DNA of 57,696 bases, filler included, from Streblomastix strix (taxonomy: Eukaryota), in assembly GCA_008636045.1 (NCBI GenBank). It is 2 parts of 2 records of this genome, joined end to end, with 100 filler letters (N's around TTAATTAATTAA, not from the genome) between each part and the next. Parts side by side here need not be neighbours in the genome. Positions count along the whole stretch, not along the records: positions 28,921 to 57,696 come from SNRW01000114.1; 1 more part is not named here. One strand, 5' to 3'. The translations under genes were made by a program, and so were the position numbers. The notes beneath the pieces are model-generated. The model did not search any database, was not told the DNA's origin, and saw only the letters and a program-made list of their open reading frames with translations. Shown in pieces: positions 3,797 to 54,432 of the stretch. The stretch's first letter is position 1. Each line of letters starts with the position of its first letter.

Positions 3797-4010
3797 GAGG
3801 AGCTGGAGCATCTAATGAAGCTATAAATAATCAAATCATTCAATTGAACAAGTCATGTAAATGTCACAAATAGAGTCTGGGTTATCCATCTAAATATCAA
3901 CAAATAAATATCTTGCGAGCAACAGATATTGCCTTATTGAAATAACATTAGATATTCATTATCAATTTAAAAGCTTGATTAAGATCATGCATCTTTGCCC
4001 CTGCAGCAAT
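3770..4010 (+). pseudogene. Truncated N-terminus of DIRS ORF3 (tyrosine recombinase position)
   Basis: Overlapping frame reads ESLLKEAMRGAGASNEAINNQIIQLNKSCKCHKQSLGYPSKY...IFIINLKA*. It stops before any catalytic R-H-R-Y residues, so the call rests on position. Confidence 0.45.
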
Positions 4011-4042
4011 TCAAAATGTTTTTAAAATTGTGAATGTGATAT

Positions 4043-5914
4043 ATGTAATTAGGAAAAATATTAAAAACATTAACTATTCATCCAGGAACATTTTCAATAT
4101 CCAAGCAAAATTTCTAAGATTAACCAGTTACTGAACAAACATCTAGTGGAGTTAGATATACAAGATCACCATTAGGAGCAAGATGTAAATCATCATGTTC
4201 AACGGTACAAACTTGTTAAGTGAATTGGACAATTTCCATACCTGCAAGTACATTAGCGATATAACTAATTGAAACAAATGAAGAACCCGATTAATATAAA
4301 AAGAGAAATAAAATCAATGGTAAAGTAGATTCCCAAGGTAATGTAACAAAAGATATGTCATAAGGCGCATAAAATTATTATGAAAAAACAGCTGAAAGAG
4401 TTGAGAATTCTGAGCAATTACGTTTTTGGCTTGGATTTTCAACTGCGTGTGGAACATTTCACCAATTTCAATTGATGCTTGATGCCACTGCATTATGGGA
4501 AACTTCAATATATGCCAGAGAATAAGCAGTTATTAGTTATAATTCTTTGAATGATTTGTGCACTATTAATAGTGTTAGTGTTTCTTCATTAGAAAGTATC
4601 ATTTCTGGTAAAAGTCTTTGTGGAATATTTAATGAAATATGTCTATTTGATATTGACACATAAGCAGCTTCAACTCCTTGGTATTTTAAAATTCCATTTG
4701 ATATTACATTTAACGGCGTCCTTGCTCTTAATTAATTGAATCTAACCTTTGATTCATTTCCTGTTCTTACTAGGATTTATGTTTCACTTTTTCTATAACT
4801 TTGGATATAAGATTATCTATAGGATTTGAATGTAGTTTGGCTTAATAAATAAGATACTGTAAGAAACTAACACTTAGTTTACCACATGATTCCACCTGAG
4901 AAACCAGACACAATATATCTACTAGCTGAACCTACTGATGAAGGAATATTTAATTATATGAAATATAATGTACGAATAGTCAATATGTAAAATTCTGGAT
5001 TAGTTGATAGATTACCATAGAACAATATGAATTAAATTAAAAATGCACGATTTGAAAAATTGGAGATATAAAACGTAAGTTTTGATTTTGAAAATAAGGA
5101 AGCAATAATTAATATGATTAGTGAGTAAAGAATAGTCAATTTCCTTACCTAAATATTTAGATCTTAATCATCAAATTTCCCATTTAGTGGTTTTATTCAA
5201 ACAAGTGGATCAATGTAAAGTATTATGTCATTATCTAATATTAAATCACTATTTATGACGTTTGCCATGCCGTAGTATCTTATTTGGTTCTATCCAATAT
5301 TAATTTATGGTTTTGATTTAGTTATTGATTAACGACACGTAATTCCTTAACCGTTTGAAGCATTAACGTAAACCGTTAATGGAGTAATGTTTGATTGTTT
5401 CGTTGATTAAGATGTTGTTAGTGCTCCATCAGATTTGTTTCATTCACTTACATTTGAAAATATAAATTGCACTGATAAAGATTATTTCTACGGTAATGGA
5501 GATATAAATGTATTCAATTCGTCTACATTAAATAATCGTTCTAAAGCAGTTAAAACACTATATCTTAACAAATATATGCTTATATTGAAATTGGCTACTG
5601 ATGATTCATATATGTGAGGCTATAACTCCTCAAAATATTGAGCAAGAACAAATATATAAGTTATTTTACATGGTAATTTGATTAAAGGAGTATTAGATAG
5701 TACGGAGATAAATAAAGAGTAGAACTAAAATGACTTAAAATAATTTATTGCTATGAGAAGTTATCTTGATCCAACTAAAGCATCTATTACTCCAATGTTA
5801 CATTATCTATGTGATGCATTTATACGAATTACATTTGATAATAATTCTGATCCATAAGTGTTAAATATTGACGTTATTGGTGAGATTCGAGGAAGTACGA
5901 TTAATACTGGTTGA
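4043..5914 (+). pseudogene. Polinton/Maverick-type major capsid protein-like ORF (~623 codons, 2 internal TGA)
   Basis: One frame from ATG4043 to TGA5912 with TAR=Q; beta-rich. Segments LRFWLGFSTACG...AREQAVI...LESIISGKSLCGIF, FDSFPVLTR, KYMLILKLATDDSYM*GYNS and ITPMLHYLCDAFIRI resemble the double-jelly-roll capsid family of metamonad Mavericks as I recall it. Internal TGA at 5615 and 5639. Confidence 0.65.
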
Positions 5915-6079
5915 AAAGCAAAAATAATTATTTTTCATTTGCATATCTTTGATTCGCAAGCATATTTGATCGCTGCTTCCCAAATTGTCTTAAATATAGA
6001 ATGCCAATTAATGTTCAATTATTCTAAAGAATAGATTGTTGTTTCATTAAACCCATCTATTTGTTTATTTTTAAATTTG

Positions 6080-6838: not shown

Positions 6839-6873
6839 TTTTATTCCAAAAATAATTACCATTTATTCCGCAA

Positions 6874-7560
6874 TCAAAAGTCATTATCTGTAATCTCTAC
6901 CTCTTGTGCATCAGATAAACGAACAAAATCCTTGTTAATTCGATACAGTTTCTCAATAGAGTTGAATAGTACATTATCGATAACAGATATACTAACGTTT
7001 TTAATTAATACATCCATCACTCTGATCAGATCTTTCTTTTTATATGATTTACCTATGCATGAATGTAATTGCATCAGTGGTTCTTCTAATACTATTTCAA
7101 TATCATCTTCATTTTCTTATGTAATTAGTGACCACAGTTTAATAAAATTATCAGATGAAAGTATAAAATCATCACCTCTTTTTCTTGTTGTTACCGTCTT
7201 CCATAGGCAATCGATAATGAATTTCATTACCTACAAATTAGGGTGGGAAAGATAAGTATTTTTAACTACTTCATCAGGTTCAACTTAAGCAGTTGTTCTA
7301 TCTACTTATTTATATTTATCTTTATTATATTTACTCTTATAATTAGTAATTTTTTATTATGTAAGGATTTATTATTCAGGCGTTGATGTAATTGTTTCAT
7401 TTACTACATCCTATTATTCTTTAGGTTTAATCGTTTCATCGATTGTTGGCATTGATTTAATCCTGCTAATTGCATCATCAATCAATTGCAATAATATTTT
7501 ATCTTCATCCGCTAATACTTTATGTTTAATCTCAGACACGTACTTTTTGGTTTTTGACAT
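6874..7560 (-). CDS. Maverick-associated hypothetical protein (228 aa)
   Basis: Open ATG7560 to TGA6874 with TAR=Q: MSKTKKYVSEIK...KRGDDFILSSDNFIKLWSLITQENEDDIEIVLEE...HSCIGKS...; intron-less and tightly packed with neighbours. Confidence 0.6.
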
Positions 7561-7629
7561 GCAAAATTAGTTTCTTTATATGCTTTTTATCAATTTACTA
7601 ATTTGAAATTAATCAATTGGACTTACAAC

Positions 7630-8242
7630 ATGCCTTGAAGAATTTAATGGAGAATGGAACAAATATTGAATACTTTGACAACGGATATGTCATCCAAATT
7701 AATAAAGATATTAAAGTGTTCGAAGATGGAAAAAAGACTCCTAAAAAATTAACTTAAATATAGTAGAATAAGTTATTATTATAAGCTAAAGGTGGAGGGA
7801 TAGAACTAAAAAAATTTTTAAAAAAGCATCTTAAAAATAAATTGATGATGAAGATGAAGATTTTATATCTTATGAACAGTAAATGGAATAAAATAAAAGC
7901 GATGATTCCTTAAGCGAAGTTTGAGAAAAACCATTAAAGAAGTAAATTAGGAAAAGTGTAGTTAAAATATCAAAAACTCCATAAATTAATTATACTAATC
8001 CCCAACATGATTAAAAAGAAATAATAAAATTAAAAACTGAAAATTCATTTAATAAACAATAACATTAAGATGCTATCAAACAAATACAGAAATATAAATT
8101 AAAAGCTAAACGAAACTAATAGTCAAAATATGTTATTGAAAGGGAATATCCATAATAAATTTAACCGGAACATTAATAAATCATTCAAAAATAACTCCAA
8201 GAAGAACAGTAATAGGAATACAATGATTTTGATTTATATTGA
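7630..8242 (+). pseudogene. Maverick-associated hypothetical ORF, frameshifted
   Basis: MENGTNIEYFDNGYVIQINKDIKVFEDGKKTPKKLTQIQQNKLLLQAKGG..., an apparent frameshift in the A/T runs near 7810-7825, an internal TGA near 7922, and an end at NDFDLY-TGA (8240). Confidence 0.45.
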
Positions 8243-8270
8243 TACAATTATTATTTGTTCCAATTTTAAA

Positions 8271-8531
8271 ATGGACAATTAAATGTATGTATATTTAAAA
8301 CAGCTAGAAACATATCTACTAAACGAATATTAGCAAAAGAATAAAGAAATTGTAGAATTTGATATAGAGATAAAGAAAAAATAAGTACGACATCTATATG
8401 ATTTGCTTGATCATACTCGTGATTCAATACGTATAGCTGAAGCATATCTTAAAAATAAAGACTAATCAAACATCAATGAATAATATACACTCATTATTTT
8501 ATTTATATTAATTAATTAGCATTGCTCATGA
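8271..8531 (+). CDS. Small helical hypothetical protein (86 aa), viral region
   Basis: ATG8271 to TGA8529 open with TAR=Q: MDNQMYVYLKQLETYLLNEYQQKNKEIVEFDIEIKKKQVRHLYDLLDHTRDSIRIAEAYLKNK... Confidence 0.45.
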
Positions 8532-9140
8532 AGAATTTTCGTCGTAAGTTCAAAACAATATTTATTATAATCAATTTATCCACGCTTTGGCTATTTCATC
8601 AATTTGTGCATTTTCCTATGATTAATGGAGCCATATCTATGTATGTGCTTCCGCTATAGGCAAAATCGCAAATTGACGGAAATTTTCCAAAATCGCGGGT
8701 AAATTGATTTTATTAAATATGATTTTGAACTTGCCCCAAACTTCTTCATTCTATACTATATATATAGAAAACCTTCACTTTATTAAAATTTATATTTCTA
8801 AATAAACATATATAGTTACTTATTATATCTTAATTCAAAATTCAAATTAAAAGAATAACATATATAATCATAGAAATAAACATAAAAAAATAAAAATAAA
8901 CTTAAGTAATGGAAAAAATGAAAGATAGTTAACCAATCGAACATAAGCCAGAAATATTGAGATAAAACACCTTTTTGATAAAAAATGGTTTCACACTAAT
9001 GCTCAGAGACTTCCCCGTAGATGAATGAGGAGTAGCCTATATAACATGAGAAGATTATACCTGAATATTAATTCTTCTAATGAACCATTAATGGAAACTA
9101 TTGATGGAAAGCATTAATTTTTCTCATTGATTTTACGAGT

Positions 9141-12844: not shown

Positions 12845-14091
12845 ATGGAGAGAAAAATCCATATTGATGTTTAGAAACCTACTGAAGTTTGCACTTTTTT
12901 TCTAAATTTCTTTATATATATATATATTTTTAACAAATATTTATTATTAATAAACTTTTATCCTTTAAGCTAACCCAAATATAAAATCTTCTGGAGAATA
13001 TTGATTAAATATAAGATAATAAATTGAAAGATGCTCTTTAACACCTTCTCAACATGGTTGTATAATGTATGTAAATAAAATATTTTTCTTTTATCATTTT
13101 TTCAATTGTTTATTTGTAGTTTCTTCTGATAAATACTTTCAAATTGAAAATTTGATGTTTAAAAAACTTGTCAGCATATATCAGAAACAATAAGATTAAG
13201 AAATATCTGTTTGAAATTATTATTTTAATATTAGCTGTTCGAAAATTTTTATATTATTTTAATTATCTTTTTCTACAGGCACTTTGTTTGAGCATTTTAG
13301 TTAATTCAACCACTAAAATGAATCGAAATATGCAAAATGAACATTTTTAGTTATTATTCATCTCTCTGATGATTGCAATCCAATCTCCAATAAGAGAAAT
13401 CAGTGCAACTGGTGCCACTTCCATAATAAAGATAATAAAATCAAACTTCAAATTCCGTAATTTCATTTCACAAAGAAGCATTTTCATCCAGAAATCGGCG
13501 GATATATTAAAGAGTGGATCTTAGCTTTAGTTTCAAATATAATCCCCAAAAGAAGCATATTCAATTCATACAAAATTAGCTGTTATTGACATCTTAAACT
13601 AATTGTTGAAATTCTTTGATATTGAATTTGATGAATAAGAAATAATGAATTTGATTGAAGCACTTCAAACCGATCAGTATGTGATAAGTGAGAAGAAAAA
13701 GAAAAAAGAAGATGATACTGATTTATTGAAAGATAATGCAGAACAATTATTGAGTGTAATTAAACATTAATTTAAGTAATAATTTGGAAAAGTGCAGCAG
13801 GTCAATGAACAAAAGAAATAAGGTACTAAATCCATGCAATCTGATTATAAACATATCATTAAAATGAAAAGGATACTTTCAGTCATTTACTTCATCATAA
13901 TTATTATAATAATTGCATCAATATGCGTTATTGGCTTCAAATACTATAAATAAATGAAAATAATAAATGATGAAGTAACAATAGTTAAATAAGATAAAAT
14001 TAAAGCTGAATAAGAATTATAGAGTGTACTTTAATAGATACAAGATGAAAAGGATAAATTGTCTAAAAAGAAAAAGAATAAAGGAAAATGA
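12845..14091 (+). CDS. Hypothetical protein: helical N-terminus, one transmembrane helix, coiled coil (3 introns; may extend past TGA14089)
   Basis: ATG12845; GT-AG introns starting at 12887, ~13067 and ~13210 preserve the frame; hydrophobic segment ILSVIYFIIIIIIIASICVIGF (~13870-13940). Confidence 0.6.
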
Positions 14092-14788: not shown

Positions 14789-17700
14789 ATGGGAGCACAG
14801 ACGTCATAGGACGATTCAAATTAAGTTGCAGAGAACTAAATTACTCATAATTAGTCCACGAGAAACACCAAGAGACCATTTAGTGGACAATTTGAAAGAG
14901 TTGAAAAAAATATTTTAGAAAATGAAAAAAGAAATCAGCAGTCTTCTACTAAATCACAATAAGGTAAAAAAATCAAATATATTTAACCTACATTCTCTAT
15001 CCTGAGTTAAAAGCACTAACATGACTTTTCTCCTCAAGTTAATTAATCTGAACAAAACTAATAAGAATTGAACAGAGAATAAAAACATCAATAAATTCAG
15101 TTTGATAAAAAAGTACCACGTTAAAAATAGCATTTTGTTTAGAAAGAAGATTCAAAAAAGATGTAAAATATTGAATAATGAAATAAAAATAAAGAAATTG
15201 ATTTAATTGAGGAGAAAAGAGTTGAAAATTATTCAAATAAATTGATTATAAAAGATAATAAATAACTGAAACAAATATAACTAGATTAACAGCTCTCAAA
15301 AGCACAGGCTATTATTGTTGAAAAGAATTAAGCTAAATTATTGCAATAATAAATGAATACTAAATAATAAGACAGTAGAAAAAACTATCATCGTAGTTCA
15401 AGTTTATCTATGTTTAATCCAGATGATAAATAACAAAATGAAAAATAAAAAGATATTAGAAAAGATAAAAACAATGAAAAATAAGAATAGAATGAATAAA
15501 AGAAAGAGAAATAATAGAATAAATTGAATATGATAAAAATGAAGACAAACAATAATGAAATAGCAAATTAAACTGATTAATTGATAGAATTGGGACAAGT
15601 TAAGAGAATTACAAAAGATGCAGAAATTAATTAAACTATGAATAATTAAAGTATATAATAACAAAATTTAAATACAGCAGAATAAAATTACTAAAAGAAA
15701 TAAGAAGATTAATAAAATCAAAATAAAGAAAATCCAAAGAAAAATCTTCATAAAAATTAAGATAATTTAAAAAGTAACAACATCGATTCTCCTCTTTAAG
15801 ATTAGAACCCCGCTATGACTAGTAAAAAATCTGTAAAGAAAGATAAATAAAAACAATAAACAGAACCATTTATTCCACCGTCAAAAATTCCTCATTAATT
15901 ATATACTGCATTTTCTTCATATAGTCAGTAATCTGCTCTATCAAAATTTTAACAATCAATTAATTAATCAAAATAAGTGATTATTAAATAATATTAATAA
16001 TTCCCAAACACTGCTAAAGGAAAATTTGATTCATTGTATCATTAATTTTAAGAATCAGATTCAATTGATTAGAAATCATAAATTGTTGAATTGGTCAAAT
16101 TGAATATATAATAAATGAATTTAGCTTAATTCTTATCAATTATTGATAATTCACTATGCGTTTTAATAATTAATGATATATAAAAATGTATAAAAAGAGA
16201 AAATAATTCAGATGTTAATAACCATAAAGAAGAAAATATGAATTAAATTAATGAAATTAATTAATATGCACAATAAAATGCTTATTCTCAATATTAATAG
16301 TAACAATAATTTATTCTCATTCTTGATATTTTGTAAGAGATTGTAGACTATGGTGCTTCAATTTAATTGAATTATGACTATTCTCAATTTTTCAATGTTT
16401 TATTCAAATCAGGGATTTATAATGAAATTGAAATAGTATTAAGAAAAGAAAATGAAAAATTAGATAATTTATTAATTAATTATATTAATGCAGAGATAGA
16501 AATTGTAAATAAGAATGAATAAGATATAATTTCTCCTGAAAATTAAAACATACTTGATTAATAAGAAATAATTGAATAATAATAATTACAACTTCAGAAA
16601 TAATAAGAATAAATATTATTAAAACTTACTTTGATTTATTGTGCCATTAATAAGAATATTTGTGTTAGTTCTGACATTTTAAATATTGTTTGGAATATCT
16701 TTGATGATAACATATCTAATATAATACAACAATTTAAGAAAATTAATAAACAATATGTTTAAAATGTAAAATTAAATGAAAAACAAATCATACTTAATAG
16801 TAATGAATATGCTGATACAATTGGCAAAATAACATATAATGATAATGAAAATTATTTTAATACTGATTATGAATAAGAATTAATCAAAATAACTAAAATA
16901 ATAAAATCTTTACAATTAATTATAATAGTTGAGAATAATTTAAATAATATAATTGATTAAAGTAAGTTTAATAAAAGATTGAAATTCCTTCTTCATATTA
17001 ATTGTTCTTAAGCATCTAAATGCAAAATAAATATATCACTTCCGAATTGTTTACAACTTCAATAATTGTAAGAGAAAATAATTTCAATAATTGTGTTAAT
17101 AACCTAAAATCCTAATAATTGTAAGCAATTCTTGTAATTTGATCACTCAATTCTTGAATATTTGTGTTAATTTATCATTTCATTCACATCAACTCTAGTA
17201 TATCATAAATCAACAACAAATGAATAATAGAAATAATCTTCTTTAAATTCTTTATCTTCATCAAATTATCAAAGATCCTAATTATAAACATCATAAGCAT
17301 CAATTTCTCAAAAATTTGCTTTTGATTCATTTAATTCACTAATAAATCTGTTTGAAATTAATTAAGAATATTTTAATCAATCATAATTGATGAAATAATA
17401 ATAATAATTTAATGTTTCATTTGCTGAAATATATAAAGTTATTAATAAAAATAGATTAAGAACAAAATAATCGATAATTATTTAATAATAATGTGTTAAT
17501 CAAAGATTAGTGTGTTTAAATTGGTTCAGTAAAATGATGATAATAATAATAAATAAACATTAAACTCCATTTTCTGATGACCATGGGATAATATTAAGAG
17601 AGATTATTAATCCAATTTGTATAAGTGGATTATGTGTTGAAGAAAATATTGATGTAATAAAATAAGGATTTCATTGTTTATTTGATATTTTATCTTAATT

Positions 17701-17938
17701 ACAAAAATAGAATCATGATTTAAAAAATAATTTAATAGGAGAAATAGAAAATTAGATGATATCAAGAAAACTTTAATAAATAAGCTATTTATTTATTGAA
17801 TTATGCAAATAATTTGAAGAATAAGGATTAATTGAAGAATTAGATGTTGATTTGTTTATTTCATAGCATGAATTGAATTTATAGAATATTAGAGTTGAAT
17901 CGCGATAATGCTTAAAATTAATAACAAAATATATTTGA
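14789..17938 (+). CDS. Lineage-specific helical-repeat protein with N-myristoylation-type start (MGAQTS); one in-frame TGA at 15179
   Basis: ATG14789 and terminal TGA17936 are in the same frame, ~1049 codons with TAR=Q. C-terminus FEEQGLIEELDVDLF resembles that of the 10101-12042 gene. Confidence 0.7.
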
Positions 17939-18399
17939 TATAATCATTTTTATTTAATTTTGTGTTGAGTAAATTTTTTTATATTTATGTTCGTGTTAAA
18001 TGTATGTCTGTTTTTTTATTTTATATGTTTAAATTCAAATTTAATTTCATTTATTGATTTTATTATTTAATTTAAATGAGTTTAATAAGTAAATAAAAGT
18101 AATATGAAGTATTTATTTAAAAAATTTCGAAGTTCGGTTTTTATTTTTTTTATTTTAATTCATTCCTTATTATGGTCATTGATGACTCAAGGAATTGAAT
18201 TGACTATGCACATCTTAAAATATTGAAAATGATATTACTTTTACATTTTCTTATTTTAACTCATGAATAACAATTTAAAGATTTATTCGCAAAACTCTAC
18301 TATTTATTAAACATTAAGAATTTGAAACTAGTAATAATAAAGTTACATAGAGATATAAAAAAGTTGATGTTGATATGAATTGCTTGATGTAGTGAAATT

Positions 18400-19040
18400 A
18401 TTTTGAAAAGTATAAATTAAACGTTAATGAACTCTTCATTATTCACTCTTTCCCTAAGAAGATTGAAATACTCTGAGATTGAATGAATTGTGAGATGATT
18501 AAGCTTTCATTGTGTATTGCTTGATAATACTTTGATCATACCATCAGAACAAACAGTAATAAGTATAGATTGGTGAGTTACAATCTGTGTGCTTCCTTTA
18601 CTGAACTGTAAGTATGTTGTACTTGTTAACTAAATCGACTCTATTAATCTACAATTCCGATTTATCCATTATTCTTAACTAATTAATTGAGATTTAATCT
18701 GTTGAATTGAGATTTAAACCAAATAAATTTGAATTACTGTTTGACTTTGATGTATTTCTGGCAATTTAGATTGGTTTAGATACTTTAAGGATTAAATGAG
18801 TTTATAGAAGGATACGTTTTAGAACTATCTTGCATCTAAAACATGAAGATATCCATGATTTGCTGTTATAAGGAGTGGGATTGTATCTTGAGTTTGATAA
18901 TGAGATTATGCAAGCGATTTTGTAATAGATAAAATTCTTTCTCAATATCATATCTCACAAGATCACCAGAAATGAATCCAATAATGACATTAGTTGAGGA
19001 TGTAATGCAATATCTCGAACTGCTCTATAGTGTTGCATTA
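18400..19040 (-). pseudogene. Degraded WD40/beta-propeller-like gene fragment
   Basis: Pieces in shifting frames: VIIGFISGDLVRYDIE, LLITANHGYLHVLDAR, ILITVCSDGMIKVLS. No intact ORF. Confidence 0.35.
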
Positions 19041-19252
19041 TAAAATTACGAGGTTCAAATATTTGGATAATAGAGAATATTAATATTAAGAAGATTATGA
19101 AGAAAAAATTCTCAAAATAAATAAAAATAAAAAATGGATAATAAAATAAAAATTTAAAAATTAAATAACAATATATAGTAAAATTAATGATTGTATAAAA
19201 TATTATTATTATCTTTTAAATGATGATTCAATTATTCTTATTGTATATTAAT

Positions 19253-22200
19253 TCACATTTTCTAAGACATCATCATTTTTTCTTAATCTCCAATTATTGA
19301 TATTATTAATGGAATTAATTCTTTTGCTTTGAGTTTAATTTATTATTTTTTATCTTCATCCCAATCATAATACCATTTATTTCCCAATTCATTAACATAT
19401 TCATTATTTGTTAATTATTCAATTTTATCTTTAACAGCTAAAGCAATTTTTAATTAATTAATATTTGATCCATATTTAAGAATAGAAAGTGAGAAATTAA
19501 GATATTCAAGAGTTTGATATTCATATTTGAAGAATTTCATTTCAAATTAATTAGAAAGAATCGCATCATGGTTATCTATATAAATATATATTAAAATAAT
19601 AAAATAAAATAAATAAAAAATAATTAATAACAAATAAAAAAGTATACCTGGGCATTCAGCAATAATTGAAAGTTCTTCAAAATCATTATTAAGTTTGAGT
19701 TCTTCAATTACACTATTCCTGATTTCTGCTGGAAGAGGAAGAGATTTGAATAAATATGAAAGTGTTTATGCATAATATCTTAGAATATTTTCATTTTTTT
19801 CATCATCTTTGAATATTTGAATTAATTTTGGAATTGTTCCATCTATTTATAATTATTTATGCAATGGATGTTATTATCCTAATTTTAATCCATTATTTTA
19901 AATTTTGATATAATTCAATATTAAATTAATTGATTCATTTCTAACATTATTATCTTTAGAATCTTATGTTTTTATAACGAGTAAAGAAATTAAATTAATA
20001 TTATTCTTATCATTTATTATTGATATTATTAATGAAAGTAATTCTTTGGATTTGGATTTAATTTCTTATTTTCTATCTTTATTCCAACCATAATAATTTC
20101 CCAATTCATCAATATATTCATCATTTGTTAATTATTCAATTTTATCTTTAATAACTGATGCAACTTTTAATTAATTAATATTTGATCCATATTTTAGAAT
20201 AGAAAGTGAGATATTAAGATATTCAAGAATATATTTATCATTTTAGAAGAGTTTCTTTTCAAATTAATTAGCAAGAATTGCATCATGGTTATCTTTATAA
20301 ATATTATATATTATAATAAATATATAATTTCATTTAAAAAAAATATAAATATAATTAAATATATTTATATATACATATATTCAATAATAAATAATTTATA
20401 TACCAGGACATTCAGCAAGAATTGAAAGCTCATCAAAATCAGGAGAATAATATTATTTGAGTTTTCCAATAACATTATTTCTGATTTCTGGTGGAAGAGG
20501 AAGAGATTTGAATAAATAAGAAAGTGTTTATGCAATATCATTTTGAATATCTTTATCTTTTTCATCTTTAAATATTTGAATTAATTTTTGAATTGTTCCA
20601 TCAGATTAAAATTATTTATGCAATGGATGTTATTATCCTAATTTTAATCCATTAATTTAAAGTTTGATTTAATTTAATATTCTACAAATTAAATTTTATT
20701 TATAATTATTATCTTATGAATCTTATATCTCTGTAACTAATTATGAAATTAAACTAATATCAATTTTATCATTTATTATTGATATTATTATTGGAAGTAA
20801 ATCTTCTGCTTTAGATTAAATTTCTAATTATTTTTCATTGATATGATTTAATGTTTGTTCTATCGGATAAATTGTATATTCATCATTTGTTAATTTTTCA
20901 ACTTTAATATTAACAGCTAAAGCAACTTTAAATTTATTAATATTTGATCCATATTTAAGAATTTAAAGTGAGATATTAAGATATTCAAGATTAAATTTAT
21001 TATTTGAGAAGAGTTTCATTTAAAATTAATTAGAAAGAATTGTATCATGGTTGTCTAAATAAATATAATATATTGAAATTAATAAAATAAAATAAATAAA
21101 AAATAATTAATAACAAATAAAAAAGTATACCTGGGCATTCAGCAATAATTGAAAGTTCTTCAAAATCATTATTAAGTTTGAGTTCTTCAATTACACTATT
21201 CCTGATTTCTGCTGGAAGAGGAAGAGATTTGAATAAATATGAAAGTGTTTATGCATAATATCTTAGAATATTTTCATTTTTTTCATCATCTTTGAATATT
21301 TGAATTAATTTTGGAATTGTTCCATCTATTTATAATTATTAATGTAATGGATGTTATTATCCTAATTTTAATCCATCTAATCCTGCTTTTATTATTATTA
21401 ATATTATTTGAATTATATATAATCTAACATTTATTTCTTTTGAATCAATAAATTTCAACAATTGTTAAATAATTTCCATTTCAAATAATTTATTCTTTTA
21501 CTCAATTTGAATTTATTTAGATAGATAATATAAGGGTTAAAGATATCCTGTTTTCATTTAATTAAGAGGAAGATAATTAATAATATGTAAATATTGATTA
21601 AAAAAATCAGTTAATTCATAAATTATTTCTTCAATATATTAATTATGAATAAGTTAAAGTATTATATTCTAATTTATAGCAATAATTTCCCCTTCCCCAT
21701 CTTCTTTTGAAATCGCTTTTTCAATCATTTCATTTATCATTTATAATAATCCTGCTTTAATCAATTAAATTTTTCCTTCTTTACTTCGATTTTAAAAAAT
21801 TCTTCCAATTTTCATAATTTCTTTCAATTAATCTGGGTATTTATATGCACTCATTATTTATTTGGCTTCATCATTATCTTTTATTTTATTAAGAGTTTCT
21901 TTTGATATTAAGCTTTGAATTAATTATTATGTTTATTAAGATCCAAATAAGAAAAGATTTATAATTAAGTAAAGAGAATATTTGATGGTCTCAGAATCGA
22001 TATATTCACCATCTGACCCTTTCCTATAAAAATAAAAAATATTATATTATATAAATAAAAAATTTGAAGAGTGTGTATTATTTTATTAAAGTTTCATACT
22101 TTAAATATTCAGTTGTTGTCTTAATTCCATTTTCAACAATAATTAATTCATGGTTCTCTAAGAATGAATAAGAAAATATGATTAAGTAAAAAAATAAAAA

Positions 22201-28820: not shown

Positions 28821-28920
28821 NNNNNNNNNNNNNNNNNNNNNNNNNNNNNNNNNNNNNNNNNNNNTTAATTAATTAANNNNNNNNNNNNNNNNNNNNNNNN
28901 NNNNNNNNNNNNNNNNNNNN
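28821..28920. other. Assembly gap / artificial linker (N44-TTAATTAATTAA-N44)
   Basis: Symmetric N runs around a palindromic 12-mer that gives TAA in all six frames; typical of synthetic contig joins. Confidence 0.9.
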
Positions 28921-29245
28921 ATAAACAGAGGAAAAATAAGAAAAAAAATAAGAATAAGAATAAGAATAATAACAAGTGTAAGAGTAAGAATAAAAATAAA
29001 AATAAGAATAAAAACAAGAATTAAATAAAGAAAAATAGAATATAATGATAATTGATGAAGAAACGGAAGATGAAATATAAATAGGGGAAAAATAAGAATA
29101 AAAATAAAATTAAGAATAATAACAAGTGTAAGAGTAAGAATAAAAATAAAAACAAGAATTAAATAAAGAAAAATAGAATATAATGATAATTGATGAAGAA
29201 ACGGAAGATGAAATATAAACAGAGGAAAAATAAGAATAGAAATAA
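28921..29245 (+). repeat. ~140-155-bp coding tandem repeat (E/Q/K-rich)
   Basis: The block AAGAATAATAACAAGTGTAAGAGTAAG...GATAATTGATGAAGAAACGGAAGATGAAATATAAA occurs twice, with a partial third unit; it abuts the gap. Confidence 0.85.
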
Positions 29246-31477
29246 AATTAAGAAACAAATGAGGATGAAATTGAAAAGGAGTAAAAAGTGAATAAAACAT
29301 TAATGCTTAAAGATTAAATCCTATATAATGATCAAGGAAAGAATGAATTATTTGAAAATAATTAAAAAGAAAAATAAATAATAGAATTGAAATAAATTGA
29401 ATAGAATGATTAATAGAAAGAAAATAATTTAATTAATACAAAGAAGAATAAGAAAAACAGAAAAAGAAACAAAATTAATTCCAAAAAATCTCGCAAGAAA
29501 AAGAGAAAGAATAAAAATATAGATAAATAAATTGTTAATTAAGAAAATGATAAATAAAATAATTAATAAAATACAATTACAAATTTAGATATTAATTAAG
29601 ATGCTTAATAAATACCACCACATCAATCTATTTCAGAAATTTTAAATAATTTTCAAAAATATTTGGACGAACTGAATTAAATAAGTAATATTTAAGGAAT
29701 TTCAAGTGAAAAAGTGAATAAAGATGGTTCAGTTAATAGTGAATTATAATCACAATAACAAACACAACAGAATTAAATTTAACCTCTTCTTCTTTAATAA
29801 GACAATTTATAATAGCTTTTAACACAACCATAATTAATTCTTTCTAATTAAGTTCCTTTAAATTTAAATACTTCTGATACTTAATTAACAGTGTTATAAT
29901 CATAATAATAAATAAATGGAAAATAAGAACAAAAAAAAGAAGGAGATGAATCTTCATCTTCATAATTCTCATCAAATGCAACATAACCTATTTCTTAATT
30001 CAAACCATTTATTAATGTTAGTAATATTAATGCACAGTAATAAATATAATCTTCATCTTCATCATCTTTAAATACTTCTAATTAATCAATAGAATAAAAT
30101 CTCCCAAAAATATTACATAATGATTCACTTCATGATAAATTAATAAAATTATAATAAACTAAATTGAAAAGGTAGTTGAAAAACAATTCAAATCATTTAA
30201 TTGAAAAGAAATTATTTGACACATAATCAAACCCACTCATAAATAAATAAATTATTAAAAAGGACAGACTTCTATTCTCAATAGATCCTATTTTTACACA
30301 AATGAATGAAATAAAGAATGATTCTTCACTTTAATAATTATTTATTAATCTTGATTCTCTCTCATTCTTCAAGCCATCTATAATAACTAAATTATTAATT
30401 GAAGAATAAAATATAGATATTTAATAGAAGATCAATAATGAGAGTAATAATAAAAAAGAAATGGAAAAAGATTAAAATAAAGAGAAAGAGAATGAAAAAG
30501 ATAAAGATAAAGATTAAGAACAACTAAAAGAAAAAAATATTAACTATTAATAAAATTTGACTAATATTAATTAAAATATTATTAATTAGCCAATTCCTTA
30601 AATTCAATAATAAGAATAAAATTTCTTTTCTACTTATTTAGATTTAACAGGAGTCTCCATTTCAACTCCTCCACAAACAACTCAATAATCAAATCAATCA
30701 ACTTTCTCTTCAAATGATAATCAATCTCAACAACAATTATAGTAACAGTAATAACCAATAATATAATAGCATTCATCATCTTCATTATAACTTAATCCTC
30801 ATTTACATCTTGATCCTCCGCCAATATCATTTATTGATTGGTAATTAATTAGAAAGTATTTAGGAATATAACAAGGTAACAATTAATAAGTAAACAATGG
30901 AGAATTTTAATAATTGAATACTCTATAAGAAATGAACGCAATTTGTTTTAAATCAGTTGTTGGTGTTGTTGTTGAATGTGCATATTCTAAAAAAAGTTTT
31001 AATGGAGGGAAAAAGAATACAAATAAAAACAGCAGAGATTTACAAATGAATTAAAATAAGTCACTTAATTATAGTTCAATTAATTTACAATTTGAAAATG
31101 GAATAAAAATGGAAACAATGAAAAGAGAAGATATAAAAATATTAAAAAGGAGAAGATAAAATGAGAATAAGAAGAAAGAGAAAGATCAATAAATGAATTA
31201 AGATATAAGAAACGAAGATAATAATAATTAATAAAAAGAGAGAAATAAATAAATAGATTGAAATAAATAAAAATAAGATGATGAATAGGAATATGAGGAT
31301 GAATTTGATTATATTTTAGATTAGAAAGAGAATAATTGGGAAGAAAATAGTATTTGGTACATCGCAGTTAGGATGATTGATGATTCTTACTTCTCTTAAT
31401 AGAATTATTTTGATATTTTAAGAGAATTGGAATAAAGCAAAATATAAAATAAAAGTTAAAATAAAAACAAATAAATC

Positions 31478-31553
<76 letters not shown>

Positions 31554-34500
31554 TGTCTTTTAATTAATGACATATTGTGGATCACTTTGTGAGATTTAAC
31601 ATTTTCTTCTCTCCATAATATTTTAGATCATAGTAAGGTGAAATATTAAGAAAGATTAAACCTGGATGTGTGTTAAGTTTAAATTAATATAAAATGTCAT
31701 TCTATGACAGAAAACATTGGTCAGGAATGCTTAAATTAGGACAATAATAAATATTATAACTACTTGATGCAGATGAAGTAAAGAAAGCTATTTTATATTA
31801 TAAGAGAGAAAGAGAAATTAAAGAATAAATAGTTAAAGAAGGAAATGAAGAAAAGAATATAAATCAAAATATAAGAAACAATTCATACTCAAAATAATCT
31901 AATAATAATAATTAATTTAAAGATAATAATAATAACTCGAAATCACCATTTTAATTTCCAGGAAGAGCAATTACTCCAACAACAAAGAGTAAATTATAGT
32001 TAAATAAGAAATATTAAGTTTTACCAACTCCAATATCCCAGAGAAATATTAGTTTGAATTAAGTACAAGTATAAAATAAGAATATTAATAATGATACAAA
32101 TCAACATTCATATATTAGTATGTTAATTCCAAATACTTTTAGAATAGAAGAAGAAATAAGAATAAAAGAATAAACCGAGTCATTCAATTAAATGACTGAT
32201 ATGGAACAAAGATTAACAGAAAGAATTAAACTATTAACAAAAATAATCATTTCATACCGGAGAAATTAATAATAATAACATTAATTCACATCATCTAATC
32301 TGAATAATTATAATAAAAATTTAAATACTACCAATAATATTAATGAACATGATATTCTTCATTATTCATTCATATCAATTTGGTCTCAATCTTTAGATCC
32401 TTCTTTTTATTCAAATTCAGAACCTTATTGGAAACCTTCAATTATTATGAGAGAATAAGAATATTAAAATAGAAATTAATAGAATTAAAATAATTATCAA
32501 CAATAACAATTGCAATAACATTAATAACAATAGTGATTAGAATAGTAACATCAATAATAATAATCAATAAGGTTACCTTCTCCATCTTTAAATCCATAAT
32601 TATAATTATAATAATAATAATAATAGAATATATATTAAAGTGATGTTGTTGGGTTAATAATATTGGTTCATTCTCCTTATTTGTGTTTATTTGACCCATT
32701 TTCACCTTTTGGCTTTGACTTAAATATTATTAAAATTGTTAATAATGATAAACTGATGAATATTTAGAGTAATAACTAATGGAATAACATATAATAAAAC
32801 GATTAATTAGGAGAAGATTAAGGAGACGAAGAAATAAATGAAAAAAGGCATAAAATGTCTTTGGCATTGACTTTTAAAGAAGGATAATGGTTTCATGGAA
32901 TGAATCTTGCATAAGAAAGAAATAATTAATTATAAAATAATATATCTGGATTTAACTCAGCAAATTAATTGTTATAATCTTCATCATCATCTTCATCATT
33001 ATAAACAGATAAATAAATACCACTTTTTGTTTCTATTGTTGCTGAAGCTCGTTCTAGAATAATTTCTCTAAGAATGTTGATTTAATAGAAAAGAGATTAA
33101 AAAGAAGAAAGAATAAGAAAGAGAAAATAGCAGAAAAAGAATAAATAAAATGTTTAATAAAATTAAGAATAAGAAATAAATGAAAATATCAATAACGATA
33201 ATAAGAATAAAAAAACTCTATTAGATTAAAATATGATAAAGAAAGATATTAATAAGAAATTAACTAATCATTAAAATTCAATTCATCCTCCATTACACAC
33301 TTCATATAAATTTTCATCTTTGATTTAATAAAAAAAGTAACTTCAATCATCAAAGTAATCAATACTTTAAAATAGTGTTAATATAAAACAAAATAAGTCT
33401 TAATAATCAATTCACACATTATCGCAAACCTCTCAAAACTCCTAATCCTCTTAATCATAACCATATTCATCTTAGAATAATACTGAAATATAAAACAAAT
33501 ATCTTCCTATTCCTTGTTATAATATGCATTTATAAAGGAATATGCCAATTAGCTCTTCTTTATTATATAACAAATTAGGAAAGAAAATATCTTAAGGTAA
33601 TTTACTGTTAAATCCATAATATTATATGGAGAAGATTCCTGCTATTTCAACAACTGCATTAGAATACTTTATTTAAAATTAACATTTAATCTCTTAATCT
33701 TATTAATCATAATAATCATCATCGTTATCTCCTTAAATATAATCATCATAATCTCATCAATATTAATAATATCCAATTCAATTCTTCTCATAACTTCCTC
33801 CAATACCTCAACATTTCATTAATTTATTAAATGTAAATCCTCTTCATTTTGATTAAGATAATTTAATATTATTCTCACATTATATTAATTTAAAAAAAAC
33901 AGACTTATACGCAACAAATTTATAGTATATAATAGAAAATATTTATATTTCAGATAACTGTTATCCTAATTAATAATTTATTAATCAATTAAAAAGAAAT
34001 GCATTACATTTAATAGATGAAACTAATAAAGGATTTAAAGATGATTAAATTAGATTAATAAGAAGAGATACAAATGAATAAGAGATTGAAAACCAGAATA
34101 GAATGGATATAAATAAGGATTAAAATTAGGAAGAAACAAACGAAACTAATAAACAACATTAATCACTGAAAGATAAAGAGATGTAATAACCTTTATTAAA
34201 TAATAATTAAATTCAAGATAAATAATAAACAAATTCTGAGAATTTTGATTCATAAGATAAAACATTATCTGATATGTCAATCAATATGTAACCAATAAAA
34301 AGAAAAAGGGGAACAGAAGATAATAATGAAAATGAGAAAGATACTCATATTGAATAAAGTTATGATAAATAAATATAGCAAGACAATAATTAAGACTTAT
34401 AAACAAATAATGACAATAATTAACTGAATGATCATAAACTAACTGGTGATAAGAGTAAAATATTAAGAAAAAGAAGAAGAATTCAGAGTGAAGATAAAGA

Positions 34501-35335
34501 GTCTTAAAACATTACAAAAATCTAATTATTTAATAAATCTAATAAAAAATAATCTGGAGATATTGAATAAAGTCAACATTCAGAATCAGATTCATTTAAT
34601 CGTCCTCTTTTTGTTAATACTCAACCATATAATTTATATTAAACTTCACTTATTCCACTTGAACCTCATAGAATATTAGCCAATTATTCTTTATTTGGTG
34701 TTGGTAACCAATAGAATTAATAGTTATAAAGGCACTTATTGTTAAGGCAAAATGTATAATAGTAATAATAGCAAAATTAAGTTAAATTATTAAAGAATAA
34801 GAAAATAAAAAAGAAACATAATAAAATTGAAAAAGAATCTCAATTTTAATTAGATGAGAATAATAATAATAATAATTAGAAGATTTAGTAGAGTAATGAT
34901 AATGATGTTCAAATTAGAACACCTGCCCAGAGAAACAATTCAGGATCTTTAACAACCCAAGATGCACTTTAATTGATTACAAAATATTAGAAGAAGAAGA
35001 AACACACTTAGCATAAAGAAAGAAAGAATACAAATTCAAAACAAAAATAATCTCACCATTCTACTCTGAAGAAATTAAAAATTGGATAATCAACATTTAA
35101 TCTACAAATTGACAAAGATAATATAAATATTCCTCATTAAGAAGGAGAATTTATGCCTCCTCCAATAGATTCATAACATTCTGCAGACGTTGGGAGCTCT
35201 TCTATTGACAAATAATCATTAACACCAGTGATTCTTGCTTAGCATATAAGCCAGCACATCTCATAGTCGAACTCTCAAATGCACTCAGACCAAAGTGAAG
35301 AATCAACTCATCAAGAGTAAAACAAATCAACTTGA
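28922..35335 (+). CDS. Giant POT1/TEBP-alpha-like OB-fold protein with Q/N-rich insertions (5'-partial; 3 in-frame TGA)
   Basis: One frame for ~2137 codons with no frameshift. OB1-like strands in order: KSVVGVVVECAYSKKS / WYIAVRMIDDS / VRFNIFF / KIKPGCVLSLNQYKMSFY. OB2-like: YQSDVVGLIILV...LCLFDP / LFVSIVAE. Internal TGA at 31259, 31568, 32534. Confidence 0.6.
31478..31552 (+). repeat. (AAT)25 microsatellite encoding poly-Asn
   Basis: Direct reading; in frame as AAT within the POT1-like ORF. Confidence 0.95.
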
Positions 35336-35633
35336 TTTGAGTGAATTTTTATCTTGTAAAATAAATTATATTTTATTTTATTTGTTATTTTATAATAAAG
35401 ATGATTTGCACACTGAAAAATAATACAATCAACGTCTTTCGAACCAGCACTCTCAAGTTCAAAATAAATTGTTAATTAATATAAGTAGCAAATTATTTTA
35501 TATAATTCATTTAATAATTTACAATTATAAAAATAATTAAGCTAGATAATCAATTTTTTTTGAAATATGATGATTTCTTGAAATTTTAAACATTTAACTT
35601 AATTTAAAATAAATTTTTCTTTATTAATTCAGA

Positions 35634-38600
35634 ATGCCGTTTAATCTTGCTGTATCGCCGCCTTCGGCTTAGTTCACGCAGTACCGCGTTGGCGGAAAAT
35701 ACCCTTTCTATTTTACCGTTACGAACAGCGAGCCAACCTCAGTTCATGTTCGTATAGTTCCACCTCTAAATGCATGTTTCAAGGTCTGGGAAGTGACTCA
35801 ACTAGAGAGAACAACTGGAAAGGTCGCTCCTGGGCTCAGCGTCAGCTATGAAATTTTATTTACGCCTGAACATCTAGAGCCCATTCATGACAATATTTAA
35901 ATATAGACAGAAAAAGGAAGTACGACATTTTAAATTACAGCATAGTTGGCTCCACCTGTTTTAACTCTTCCTCAGATTCTGGATTGTGGACCATGCTTCA
36001 ATGATAAGTCAAAAATTATTGAAATAAAGTTCAGCAACCTCGGTGGAACAGGAACATTTGCATTTGAACAGCCGGGAATTGAATCAAAGGAAGTAACCCT
36101 AGCAACACTTCATATTGCAAAATCCAATTAAAATGATAACACAAAGAACAAAGGGAAAAGCAATGGAGTTCCAGGATCATATCTTAATACAAAATATTTT
36201 GTAATTGAACCCAAGTATTTCCATCTTGAAAAAGGTGAAGAAGGAACAGTGCGTGTTACTTACTACCCAATGGGAGTGAAGAAAACGAAAAGTCGGATTA
36301 ATGATGAGTCAGATTCTGATTCTATTAATGTAAGTGAAGATGAGAAAGGATCAATTTGTAGTCCTCATGAAATAATGGTCTAATTGAACTGTAATGATTA
36401 TTTAATCTTACCTATATATCTGAAAGGACAGGTATACTTTATTTATCATTTGAATATTCATATTATTTATTGAACTATTCTAATTAATATTCTATTTATC
36501 CTCTAATATCAGAGTATAAGACCTTTTGCATTCATTCCTCTACCTCCTACAACAGCACCACTTCCTTCACTTGATGAATCATAACTTAATATTCTCACTC
36601 AACCATTCATCTTTAGAGCTCCTGTTCCACCTCGTTCTTTATTCTTCACTCAGACTCCATTATATACTTCAAACACACAGGAAAGTTTGATATACTTTTA
36701 TTATAATATTTTATTCTCTTTATTTATTACTCTTAATTATTTATTTCTTTTTATATAATATTATTTTATGTAATATTATTTTATATAATATTATTTTATA
36801 TAATATTATTTACTATATTCGTAGTTCTTGTGTATAATCCATGTCCACTTCCTATTAGATTTAATTGGTTATTTTTAGATGCACCTTTAGATTATATTCG
36901 TGGAACTGATATTAGAATGTTATTATATAATATTGCAACTCGAAGACGTACATAAACTAAATAAATAAATGAAATATCTAATGAATTAAATGATAATGAT
37001 AATCTTATTTTAGAAATGGATTCTATTCTATAAGAAAAGCTTATTGAAGGATTAGATTATTTATAAATAGAGCCTTAAAATGGAATAATCAATGCATTTA
37101 CATAATCAAAGTTTCACATCACATTTACACCCCAACCACCTCAGATATCAAATTAATCAATTTCATAATCAAATAAAGCAAGATCAATTGGAGGAAGAAT
37201 TGGTGAGTAAGGATTCAGAACTAATTATGATTCATGGATGTTTATGTATGCATCAATGTCTACTCTTCCCCCAAATGGATCTTAATCTCCATATTCATTA
37301 TGGGATTAATAAATAACTGATCCATCTGGAGTTAGAGATATTAATAAAGAGAAAGGAATTGTATCTGTGAATGACAAATCATAAAATAAAAATAATTAAT
37401 AAACCACTTCATCACTTTTATAAACAGAAGAAAATAATTAATTCTCATTAGATCCAAATTAATAAGAATAATTAATAGCAGAAACAACAACATCTTCATC
37501 ATCTTAATCTACTTCTTAATCTTCTATTAAATCATTTGGTAGAAAAGGTGAGAATCTTTTATTTACATTACCTGTATCTGGGACATCATCAATTCCTGAT
37601 CTTTCATTAATCCAATAATCAAAGCTTGTTAGTATTCATAATAGTAACTAATTAAATGAAGGAGATGGAAATGCATCAAAATCCAGATCAATAATTAAAT
37701 ATGATTATCCGATAAGTAATGAAAAAGGAACAACTAGATCTTCATTTGGATCATCTGCTCTATCAACTGCATTAACATAATTGTCTTTAATTCCTACAGA
37801 TCCATTACATCCAGTATGTGCACTTAGAATAGAGGAACCTTGTATTGATTTTGGAGTACTTCCTCCAAATAGGTTCAATATAATGAATGTAACCCTTGTT
37901 AATACATCTCCAAATAAAAGATTGAGATATAAATGGAGAATTAGAATAGATGATGAAAAGAAGAGATAAAGATTAGCAAATGAAAAGAATGAAGTTGTTC
38001 CAATAAAGAATTCAGATTAATATCCTGAACCTTAATTTATTCCATTTGTAAATGCTGTATAAGTAATTGAGAAAGTCTTCACTCCAGATGTTGTATAAAT
38101 GATTCTGAATAATAATCCTCTTGAATTATTTGGATTGGGATTATAGAAAGTATAAAATAATTAAGAAGATGACAGTGAAGAGAAAGAATAAGAAGATAAT
38201 AATGATGATCAAAGGCAAAATTTGGTTGTTATTAGAAACACAGCAATTGAATTATATAATGAAATAGAGACCACAAATAGCTATTCAATATATAGAGAAT
38301 AATAATCAGTTGGATTAATGGTTGTATCTTCACCAAATGGAGTAATTGAACCTGGATAAAGTATGGTTCTTAGTGTTGGATTTGCTTGTGTTAATTAACA
38401 TACGATGGATTTACTATCTAGAATTGTTGTAGAAGAAATTGACTCTGATGGGAAATATTAAGAAACAAAGAATAAAGAAGTAGAAGATGAATTAATAGAT
38501 GAAGAGGATAATTAAAATGAATCAAACTCTTTGGTACTCGCACTTTCAGGTGCTGTATTAGTACCAGTTGTTGCAGTTGATCCTCCTTTCCTGTCCCTTG

Positions 38601-44678: not shown

Positions 44679-47051
<2,373 letters not shown>

Positions 47052-47182: not shown

Positions 47183-54432
<7,250 letters not shown>

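What the first reader, a model, noticed from the sequence alone, without database searches (positions are those of the whole stretch)
31259..32536. Candidate genetic code with no dedicated stop: internal TGA codons in an otherwise intact gene while TAA/TAG=Gln
Seen: the 6.4-kb POT1-like frame has TGA at 31259 (QID*NKQ), 31568 (FNQ*HIV) and 32534 (QQQ*LEQ) but no frameshift, despite many microsatellites and homopolymers. The first two lie in loops between strands of one OB fold that continues in frame. I found no convincing frame-preserving introns around them. TGA is also the terminator of every gene here. I found no internal TGA in DLEC1, PA2G4 or the kinase exons I read, and these use TGG for Trp. 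Known: UAR=Gln with UGA=Trp/stop exists in karyorelict ciliates and Condylostoma, and Blastocrithidia reassigns all three stops. Inference: UGA is dual-meaning here (probably Trp), which I am not aware of being described for an oxymonad-like lineage.
Basis: partly seen in the sequence, partly recalled or inferred. Interest (0 to 1): 0.88.

Follow-up and report, generated by a model that had tools for sequence, protein, structure and literature searches.

The report
Premature stops in a decaying gene
Three TGA stop codons interrupt a long gene of a likely termite-gut protist that uses TAA and TAG as ordinary codons; a broken retrotransposon nearby shows the same stops without frameshifts, so the gene is most likely just decaying, although a code that sometimes reads TGA as an amino acid is not excluded.

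Summary
The three in-frame TGAs (31259, 31568, 32534) are there, in a 2,137-codon frame without frameshift. Random assembly error is excluded and introns are unlikely. Two more host genes carry one each (15179, 53829): 5 TGA against 43 TGG in 10,842 codons (0.046%), close to Condylostoma's sense-UGA rate (0.042%).

A retrotransposon in this window with two catalytic Asp changed to Glu has 4 TGAs and no frameshift over 604 codons, and its two alignable TGAs sit at Leu and Thr/Arg columns, not Trp. A second population differs downstream of the TGAs by 3 synonymous and 13 non-synonymous changes (3.6 expected if neutral). TGA 32534 lies in a poly-Gln tract, one transition from TAA.

Best reading: nonsense substitutions in a decaying gene copy under TAA/TAG=Gln, TGA=stop (0.55). 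Rivals: leaky UGA readthrough (0.20), Trp/stop dual code (0.17), introns (0.08). No host TGA could be aligned to a homologue, and no RNA, tRNA or eRF1 was available. The POT1/OB label and the oxymonad lineage were not confirmed.

The parts
28922..35335 (+). Long Q/N/K-rich reading frame (at least 2,137 codons, 5' end missing) read with TAA/TAG as sense; family unassigned (POT1-like label unverified)
   Evidence: no family or homologue
31259..31261 (+). Internal TGA 1 (QID*NKQ), codon 780, 4,074 nt before the terminal stop; cannot be removed by a plausible intron
   Evidence: (best candidate -109 bits)
31568..31570 (+). Internal TGA 2 (FNQ*HIV), codon 883; the least well excluded intron case (72-nt GTC...TAG candidate 31555-31626, -7 bits, GC 0.26)
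32534..32536 (+). Internal TGA 3 (QQQQ*LEQQ), codon 1205, inside a poly-Gln tract; context disfavours Trp
   Evidence: best -15 bits; ln LR -6.45
35333..35335 (+). Terminal TGA, with a second in-frame TGA three codons on; next gene starts at 35634
28821..28920 (.). Artificial-looking spacer N44-TTAATTAATTAA-N44 between two pieces of 28,820 and 28,776 nt; cuts the gene's 5' end
   Evidence: that it joins two contigs is inferred
15179..15181 (+). Internal TGA at codon 131 of a 1,049-codon single-frame gene 14789-17938 (IEQ*NKN)
   Evidence: best intron candidate -18 bits
53827..53829 (-). Internal TGA near the 5' end of a long gene at about 47640-54432 (LGK*NNH)
   Evidence: best intron candidate -14 bits
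1982..3796 (+). Control: reverse transcriptase plus RNase H-like region of a broken retroelement in one frame; 4 internal TGAs (2135, 2255, 2675, 2726), no frameshift; YxDD reads FIED and TDAS reads TEAS
   Evidence: (RVT_1 E 4.5e-17; RVT_3 E 0.008, below cut-off)
4040..5914 (+). Control: capsid-like (label recalled, no Pfam match) mobile-element frame that runs on in frame through TGAs 5615 and 5639
   Evidence: (codon score +30.6 against -18.7 and -20.6)
36432..36512 (+). Control: 81-nt GT-AG intron of the DLEC1/CFAP65-like gene that holds an in-frame TGA (36471)
   Evidence: (+24.5 bits, itself in the training set)

Best explanation
The three TGAs are real in-frame stop codons that most likely arose as nonsense point mutations in a gene copy that is decaying, in an organism inferred to read TAA/TAG as glutamine and TGA as its only stop. 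Shown: with TAA/TAG as sense, TGA is the only nonsense target; about 2.4-2.7% of substitutions in this frame would make one, about half of them from TAA; and broken mobile DNA in this window collects TGAs faster than frameshifts. Inferred: the first TGA knocked the copy out (truncation, or decay of the message) and the other two followed neutrally over roughly 1-1.5% sequence change. The single TGAs near the 5' ends of two other genes would be further null alleles, or lesions tolerated by starting at a downstream ATG.
For: (1) Internal control: the RT frame 1982-3796 has 4 TGAs and 0 frameshifts in 604 codons. Its two alignable TGAs face Thr/Arg and Leu in Ty3 and foamy-virus RT, and two catalytic Asp read Glu. 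An indel ratio of 0.1 per substitution would give this with P=0.002. (2) The capsid-like frame runs through 2 TGAs without a shift. (3) Run X2, of another study, differs downstream of the TGAs by 3 synonymous and 13 non-synonymous listed changes; 3.6 are expected if neutral; P=0.047 for omega 0.4 and 0.013 for 0.3. (4) TGA 32534 sits in poly-Gln; summed context ln LR is -5.1 against all-Trp; mutation predicts 46-60% of new TGAs from TAA and 2-7% from TGG. (5) The best-recognised gene, DLEC1-like, has 0 TGA and 11 TGG, while 3 of 5 TGAs cluster in one gene (P=0.048). (6) Other A/G-ending codon pairs run about 3:1 to 10:1 towards A, whereas TGA:TGG is 5:43.
Against: (1) 3 of the 10 host loci counted carry a TGA and none shows a simple frameshift; P(5 of 5 lesions TGA) is 0.08-0.58 depending on the control counts. 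(2) The rate, 0.046%, matches C. magnum sense UGA, 0.042%. (3) 3 of 5 TGAs are followed by Asn, against 7% after TAA (P=0.004) and 14% after TGG (P=0.04), a pattern noticed after the fact. (4) Four of five contexts are neutral or slightly favour Trp (ln LR -0.16 to +0.73); the negative total rests on one site. (5) The X2 test is weak: 16 of 28 differences listed, depth 2-3.4, mostly low-complexity sequence, no control gene. A tandem duplicate in another gene gives a similar 4:7, so near-neutral ratios may be normal here. (6) X2 pieces show 0 gaps in 1,789 nt, and a more distant X2 contig shows 5 of 9 changed codons synonymous (P=0.03), so the region was under selection at some time. (7) The RT block is bounded by frame changes and was copied by reverse transcription, so it may understate the host indel rate.
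Confidence: 0.55

Rival explanations
1. Leaky stop: UGA far from the poly(A) tail would be read through at a useful but partial rate by near-cognate tRNAs (Trp, Cys, Arg or Gln), so new TGAs from any codon are tolerated in flexible loops of weakly expressed genes. This would be a step on the way to an ambiguous code.
For: TGAs occur in several host genes without frameshifts and mostly in Q/N/K-rich stretches. 3 of 5 follow a Gln codon, and one has C at +4. In yeast, Gln context and +4 C raise readthrough, with UGA most permissive at about 8% (PMC13192750 section 6). All three focal TGAs lie 2.8-4.1 kb from the terminal stop.
Against: Three leaky stops in series at 8% each would leave under 0.1% full-length protein. 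None is a full Gln-stop-Gln context. No stable structure follows any of the 5 TGAs (z -1.4 to +1.2). Downstream divergence looks neutral.
Confidence: 0.2
2. Ambiguous code as in karyorelicts, Condylostoma or Amoebophrya: UGA would be read as Trp inside genes and as stop near the transcript end, with TGG still strongly preferred.
For: Rate 0.046% against 0.042% in C. magnum and 0.059% in B. japonicum. UGG is strongly favoured over UGA in Amoebophrya too, with sense UGA biased to 5' ends, as at 15179 and 53829. Contexts DWN, QWH, QWN and KWN read naturally. Introns and random error do not explain the TGAs.
Against: No TGA at a Trp column was found: the only two alignable ones, in a dead element, face Thr/Arg and Leu. 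0 TGA for 11 TGG in DLEC1-like. The poly-Gln site disfavours Trp. No purifying signal against X2. No report for oxymonads in 8 searches, and a 2026 survey that checked tubulins only gives TAR=Gln.
Confidence: 0.17
3. Unusual introns (or locally wrong consensus) remove or fake some TGAs, most plausibly the 72-nt candidate over 31568.
For: An intron does hide an in-frame TGA at 36471, and one real intron containing (AAT)n scores -14 when left out of training. The 3' end of the 31555-31626 candidate is T-rich. No read or transcript covers the three codons.
Against: TGA 31259 needs an A-rich intron of at least 204 nt scoring -109 or worse; reference introns are 49-137 nt, and 19 of 21 score above 0. 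None of the 21 has C at +3 of the donor. Random error would need about 1.7% wrong bases, i.e. 47 expected in the 2,720-nt X1 contig, where 0 were seen.
Confidence: 0.08

Closest known systems
Streblomastix-type oxymonad code, TAR=Gln (NCBI table 6); PMC13002328 passages, PMC1501061 passages; Keeling and Leander 2003 not seen, cited through these
   Same: TAA/TAG are abundant in frame, gene ends seen are TGA, GT-AG introns are short and AT-rich, and the two runs that hold the DNA are labelled termite gut metagenome
   Different: Lineage is inferred, not shown: no oxymonad homologue was retrieved. Internal TGAs are not mentioned in the passages read.
Ambiguous UGA Trp/stop with UAR=Gln: Parduczia and karyorelicts, Amoebophrya sp. 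ex K. veneficum (table 27), Condylostoma magnum (table 28); PMC4967479, 10.1101/2022.04.12.488043, PMC6394959, passages read
   Same: UAR sense, TGA at gene ends, rare internal TGA at a similar rate, TGG preferred
   Different: There, UGA sits at conserved Trp columns of essential genes under strong purifying selection (dN/dS 0.013 in one example) and was confirmed by mass spectrometry and Ribo-seq in C. magnum. Here no Trp column is shown and downstream change looks neutral.
Pseudogenes with premature termination codons (general knowledge)
   Same: Several nonsense codons in one copy, neutral-looking divergence, the same pattern in dead mobile elements next door
   Different: No frameshift; only one codon can act as nonsense, about half the time reached from a Gln codon
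Eukaryotic selenoprotein UGA (oxymonad M. exilis has Sec machinery; PMC6759080 passage)
   Same: In-frame UGA in a lineage that may hold a UGA-reading tRNA
   Different: No SECIS match, no redox Cys-like context, TGAs lie in low-complexity stretches

Membership tests
Ambiguous UGA Trp/stop code (tables 27/28) | UAA and UAG are sense codons (Gln) | tested here: met
   938 in-frame TAA in the counted exons; Pfam domains lie in frames full of TAA/TAG. That the residue is Gln is inferred from CAA/TAA exchanges between duplicates and from the literature.
Ambiguous UGA Trp/stop code (tables 27/28) | UGA terminates genes | tested here: inconclusive
   6 host gene ends inspected are TGA, but they were defined under table 6; no transcripts
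Ambiguous UGA Trp/stop code (tables 27/28) | Internal UGA aligns to conserved Trp columns | tested here: inconclusive
   0 of 5 host TGAs could be aligned. 2 of 4 RT TGAs aligned, both to non-Trp columns, but in a dead element.
Ambiguous UGA Trp/stop code (tables 27/28) | Genes with internal UGA are under purifying selection | tested here: not met
   3 synonymous of 16 against X2, omega about 1.3; small sample, no control gene
Ambiguous UGA Trp/stop code (tables 27/28) | Sense-UGA frequency of about 0.04% or more | tested here: met
   5 of 10,842 codons, 0.046%; not diagnostic, and counted over whole frames rather than conserved domains
Ambiguous UGA Trp/stop code (tables 27/28) | Short 3' UTR and depletion of sense UGA near the poly(A) tail | not testable with these tools
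   No RNA holder listed
Ambiguous UGA Trp/stop code (tables 27/28) | UGA-reading tRNA-Trp and altered eRF1 | not testable with these tools
   No genome held; 0 tRNAs in the window
Ambiguous UGA Trp/stop code (tables 27/28) | Ribosomes translate through; peptides carry Trp | not testable with these tools
   needs Ribo-seq or mass spectrometry
Selenoprotein | SECIS element downstream | tested here: not met
   Rfam scan of 28921-36000 at E<=5 gave 2 weak snoRNA matches only
POT1/TEBP OB-fold family | Match to a POT1/OB profile or solved structure | tested here: not met
   No POT1/OB hit in Pfam or PDB; long low-complexity insertions lower sensitivity
POT1/TEBP OB-fold family | OB barrel in a predicted structure | tested here: inconclusive
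   Single-sequence models, pLDDT 46.7 and 39.3; no fold search run
Pseudogene | Disabling lesions and neutral evolution | tested here: inconclusive
   3 TGAs, neutral-looking 3:13, but no frameshift and no intact paralogue found

The most novel reading that the evidence does not exclude
A termite-gut oxymonad-like protist has no dedicated stop codon: TAA/TAG are Gln, and TGA is read as an amino acid (Trp, or a mix by efficient readthrough) inside genes while still ending them. This would be the first such code among metamonads, overlooked because the internal rate is only about 0.05% and highly expressed genes avoid it.
Probability: 0.3. Interest if true: 0.85.

Novelty: already known. Interest (0 to 1): 0.4.

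Why it matters
If the stops are lesions, the lesson is methodological: under TAA/TAG=Gln, dead genes collect TGAs without frameshifts and can mimic an ambiguous code. It also suggests that many gene copies in this genome are broken, which would inflate and split gene counts. If TGA is read through, this would be an independent origin of a code without a dedicated stop, in a lineage believed to lack mitochondria (PMC10703272 abstract), which would rule out a borrowed mitochondrial tRNA-Trp(UCA) as the decoder. One genome-wide column test would settle it.

Tried and rejected
No whole genome is held. No RNA holder was listed; this is no evidence either way.

Homologue searches were empty. The search for homologous proteins found nothing for the focal region, the 53829 gene or the DLEC1-like gene. 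The HMMER library gave 6 hits: the window's own 40-aa piece and 5 low-complexity matches. Locus scans found nothing in metagenome contigs, viral contigs or prokaryote genomes. Exact look-up of 8 table-11 fragments found 0 of 8. The protein atlas gave no result for this protein.

A hole proves nothing. X1's 0.98 word share fits both presence and absence of the three codons. Joints and gaps listed come from short low-complexity matches and were disregarded.

Folds were uninformative, so no fold search was run. No SECIS, no tRNA, no stable hairpin after any TGA.

Candidate TGAs at 37638, 41841, 43746 and 28389 were rejected as antisense to real genes. 7922 and 6372 lie in mobile DNA. 36471 lies in an intron.

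Errors on my side: one search had two misframed segments (its TGA counts and context test are void; redone). Protein 3 was misframed (redone). 2 of 21 reference introns were off by 1-3 nt. One search allowed only YAG ends; one search allowed any AG and GC donors.

The PNAS 2019 Streblomastix paper is not held. No supplements were read; genome-wide codon tables there could bear on novelty. Earlier scan notes had nothing on this genome or relatives.
Full report
Observation. The + frame 28922-35335 has TGA at 31259, 31568 and 32534 and ends at TGA 35333. It holds 8 TGG and 276 TAA/TAG. Over 29231-35335 it has 4 TGAs, against 31 and 79 in the other two + frames. A codon HMM that allows TGA keeps this frame on both sides, with a short switch to the Gln frame over the (AAT)n run. 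The 5' end is missing: N44-TTAATTAATTAA-N44 at 28821-28920 separates pieces of 28,820 and 28,776 nt, which I read as two joined contigs. No genome is held.

Organism. Two of 4 listed runs hold the DNA, both labelled termite gut metagenome: X1 with 0.98 of the words (possibly the source, so not independent) and X2 with 0.29, from another study. TAA/TAG are abundant sense codons, and 21 hand-picked GT-AG introns are 49-137 nt with GC 0.05-0.21. This fits Streblomastix-type oxymonads (TAR=Gln, PMC13002328 passages; introns 46-229 nt, PMC1501061 passages). It is an inference: no oxymonad homologue was retrieved.

Gene identity. Nothing supports the POT1/OB label beyond resemblance by eye. Pfam was negative on the whole frame and on 6 pieces, PDB was negative, and two folds were unusable. 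The claim that two TGAs lie between strands of one OB fold is untested.

More TGAs. In 17 exon segments from 10 host loci (10,842 codons) there are 5 internal TGAs and 43 TGG: the three focal ones, +15179 and -53829. Left out of this count: mobile DNA at 1-9000, the kinase's short exons, most PA2G4-like exons, 13156-14091 and the fragment at 18300-19100. The rate, 0.046%, is close to sense UGA in C. magnum (0.042%) and B. japonicum (0.059%) (PMC4967479 passages). Other A/G-ending pairs run about 3:1 to 10:1 towards A, so TGA is not a free synonym of TGG. The DLEC1-like gene has 0 TGA and 11 TGG in 2,724 codons.

Introns and errors. Scoring every frame-keeping GT/GC..AG candidate gave best values of -109, -7 and -15 bits for the focal sites and -18 and -14 for the other two. 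Reference introns left out in turn have median +12, with 19 of 21 above 0; the TGA at 36471 is correctly placed in an intron at +24.5. The 72-nt candidate over 31568 is the least excluded. Random consensus error would need about 1.7% wrong bases, or 47 in the 2,720-nt X1 contig 32634-35353, which has 0 differences. The three codons themselves were not covered by any listed long piece.

Testing the no-frameshift argument. About 2.4-2.7% of substitutions in this frame would create TGA, 46-60% of them from TAA and 2-7% from TGG. The window has its own control, however. The frame 1982-3796 carries RVT_1 (E 4.5e-17) and a weak RNase H-like match in one frame, with 4 internal TGAs in 604 codons. Against Ty3 and foamy-virus RT, TGA 2135 faces Thr or Arg and TGA 2255 faces the Leu before the first catalytic Asp; YxDD reads FIED and TDAS reads TEAS, so the element is very likely dead. 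A capsid-like frame also runs through 2 TGAs. Frame changes do occur in mobile DNA, upstream of the RT block and in the gene at 7640-8500 (rough). For control counts from 4:0 to 8:6, two further lesions are both TGA with P=0.33-0.78, and five lesions are all TGA with P=0.08-0.58. Absence of frameshifts is therefore weak evidence here.

Selection. Eight listed X2 pieces cover 1,789 nt downstream of TGAs 1-2 (seven also downstream of TGA 3), with 28 differences and 0 gaps. The 16 listed differences that I assigned to X2's close pieces (piece bounds are shown for only part of the records) are 3 synonymous and 13 non-synonymous, against 3.6 expected if neutral; P=0.047 for omega 0.4 and 0.11 for 0.5. 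This is weak: depth is 2-3.4, the sequence is low-complexity, there is no control gene, and a tandem duplicate elsewhere gives 4:7. A more distant X2 contig at 33504-33553 has 5 of 9 changed codons synonymous (P=0.03), so the region was once under selection.

Which residue. A context model gives ln LR for Trp against the mutational mix of +0.17, -0.16, +0.73, -6.45 and +0.58; only the poly-Gln site 32534 speaks clearly, against Trp. In the other direction, 3 of 5 TGAs precede Asn, against 14% for TGG and 7% for TAA; this was noticed after the fact. Three of 5 follow Gln, a context that raises readthrough in yeast (PMC13192750, abstract and section 6). There is no SECIS and no stable hairpin after any of the five, although M. 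exilis has Sec machinery (PMC6759080 passage).

Mechanism. Most likely (0.55) TGA is the sole stop, the first TGA inactivated this copy and two more accrued; the early TGAs in two other genes are null alleles or are bypassed by a downstream ATG (inferred). Rivals: partial readthrough that tolerates TGA in loops (0.20), a Trp/stop code (0.17), odd introns (0.08).

Known systems. UAR=Gln with UGA Trp/stop is established in karyorelicts and Condylostoma and inferred in Amoebophrya (passages); low-frequency bifunctional TGA is claimed for further ciliates (PMC10089648, outline and passages). Their defining evidence, TGA at conserved Trp columns in genes under strong selection, is not shown here, so I do not file this as a member. 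Eight paper searches listed no report of sense UGA in an oxymonad; most were seen as listings only, subscription papers are missing, and the PNAS 2019 genome paper could not be read. Also read as passages: PMC8629427, PMC10120064, PMC10703272.

Verdict. The feature is real and the best reading is ordinary. The novel reading keeps about 0.3 and can be settled by one genome-wide test. Interest 0.4.

Noticed in passing
window 28821-28920: N44-TTAATTAATTAA-N44 spacer between pieces of nearly equal length (28,820 and 28,776 nt): the window looks like two size-sorted contigs joined together, so genes across it are not neighbours.
   Followed up: yes
window 700-3900 (+): Broken retroelement (RT and RNase H-like region; DIRS-like by recall) with FIED and TEAS at catalytic motifs, many TGAs, and frame changes only upstream of about 1700.
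   Followed up: partly
window 4040-8500: Cluster of intron-free mobile-element genes in the TAA/TAG-sense code, including a capsid-like frame with no Pfam match. Endogenous viruses using the host code are reported for S. strix (PMC10120064). The gene at 7640-8500 has frame changes and a TGA at 7922.
   Followed up: partly
window 49412-51983 (-): 1.3-kb tandem duplicate, 98.7% identical (11 substitutions, 4 synonymous; one 6-nt indel), that breaks the frame of the long gene which also carries TGA 53829: a haplotype misjoin or a real lesion.
   Followed up: partly
window 45405-45535 (+): An intron of the PA2G4-like gene is made mostly of an (AAT)n run of about 108 nt; similar runs are coding elsewhere (poly-Asn near 31500, poly-Gln at 47884-48003).
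   Followed up: partly
window 18300-19100 (-): WD40-like fragment (by eye) with a frame change and a TGA; possibly another host pseudogene.
   Followed up: no
window 19293-21446 (-): Tandem ARM-like repeats of about 0.7-1.4 kb, 78-86% identical, with matching introns.
   Followed up: no
window 31259, 15179, 53829: Three of the five host internal TGAs read TGAAATAA; unexplained, and could reflect Trp-Asn, a mutation hotspot or chance.
   Followed up: partly
window, reference introns: 6 of 21 introns end in AAG, and donors are mostly GTTT or GTAT; the 2006 Streblomastix set reported only a pyrimidine before AG.
   Followed up: no
run X2, window 33504-33553: A more divergent contig (12 differences, 5 of 9 changed codons synonymous) suggests a paralogue or a related species with this gene in the same sample.
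   Followed up: partly
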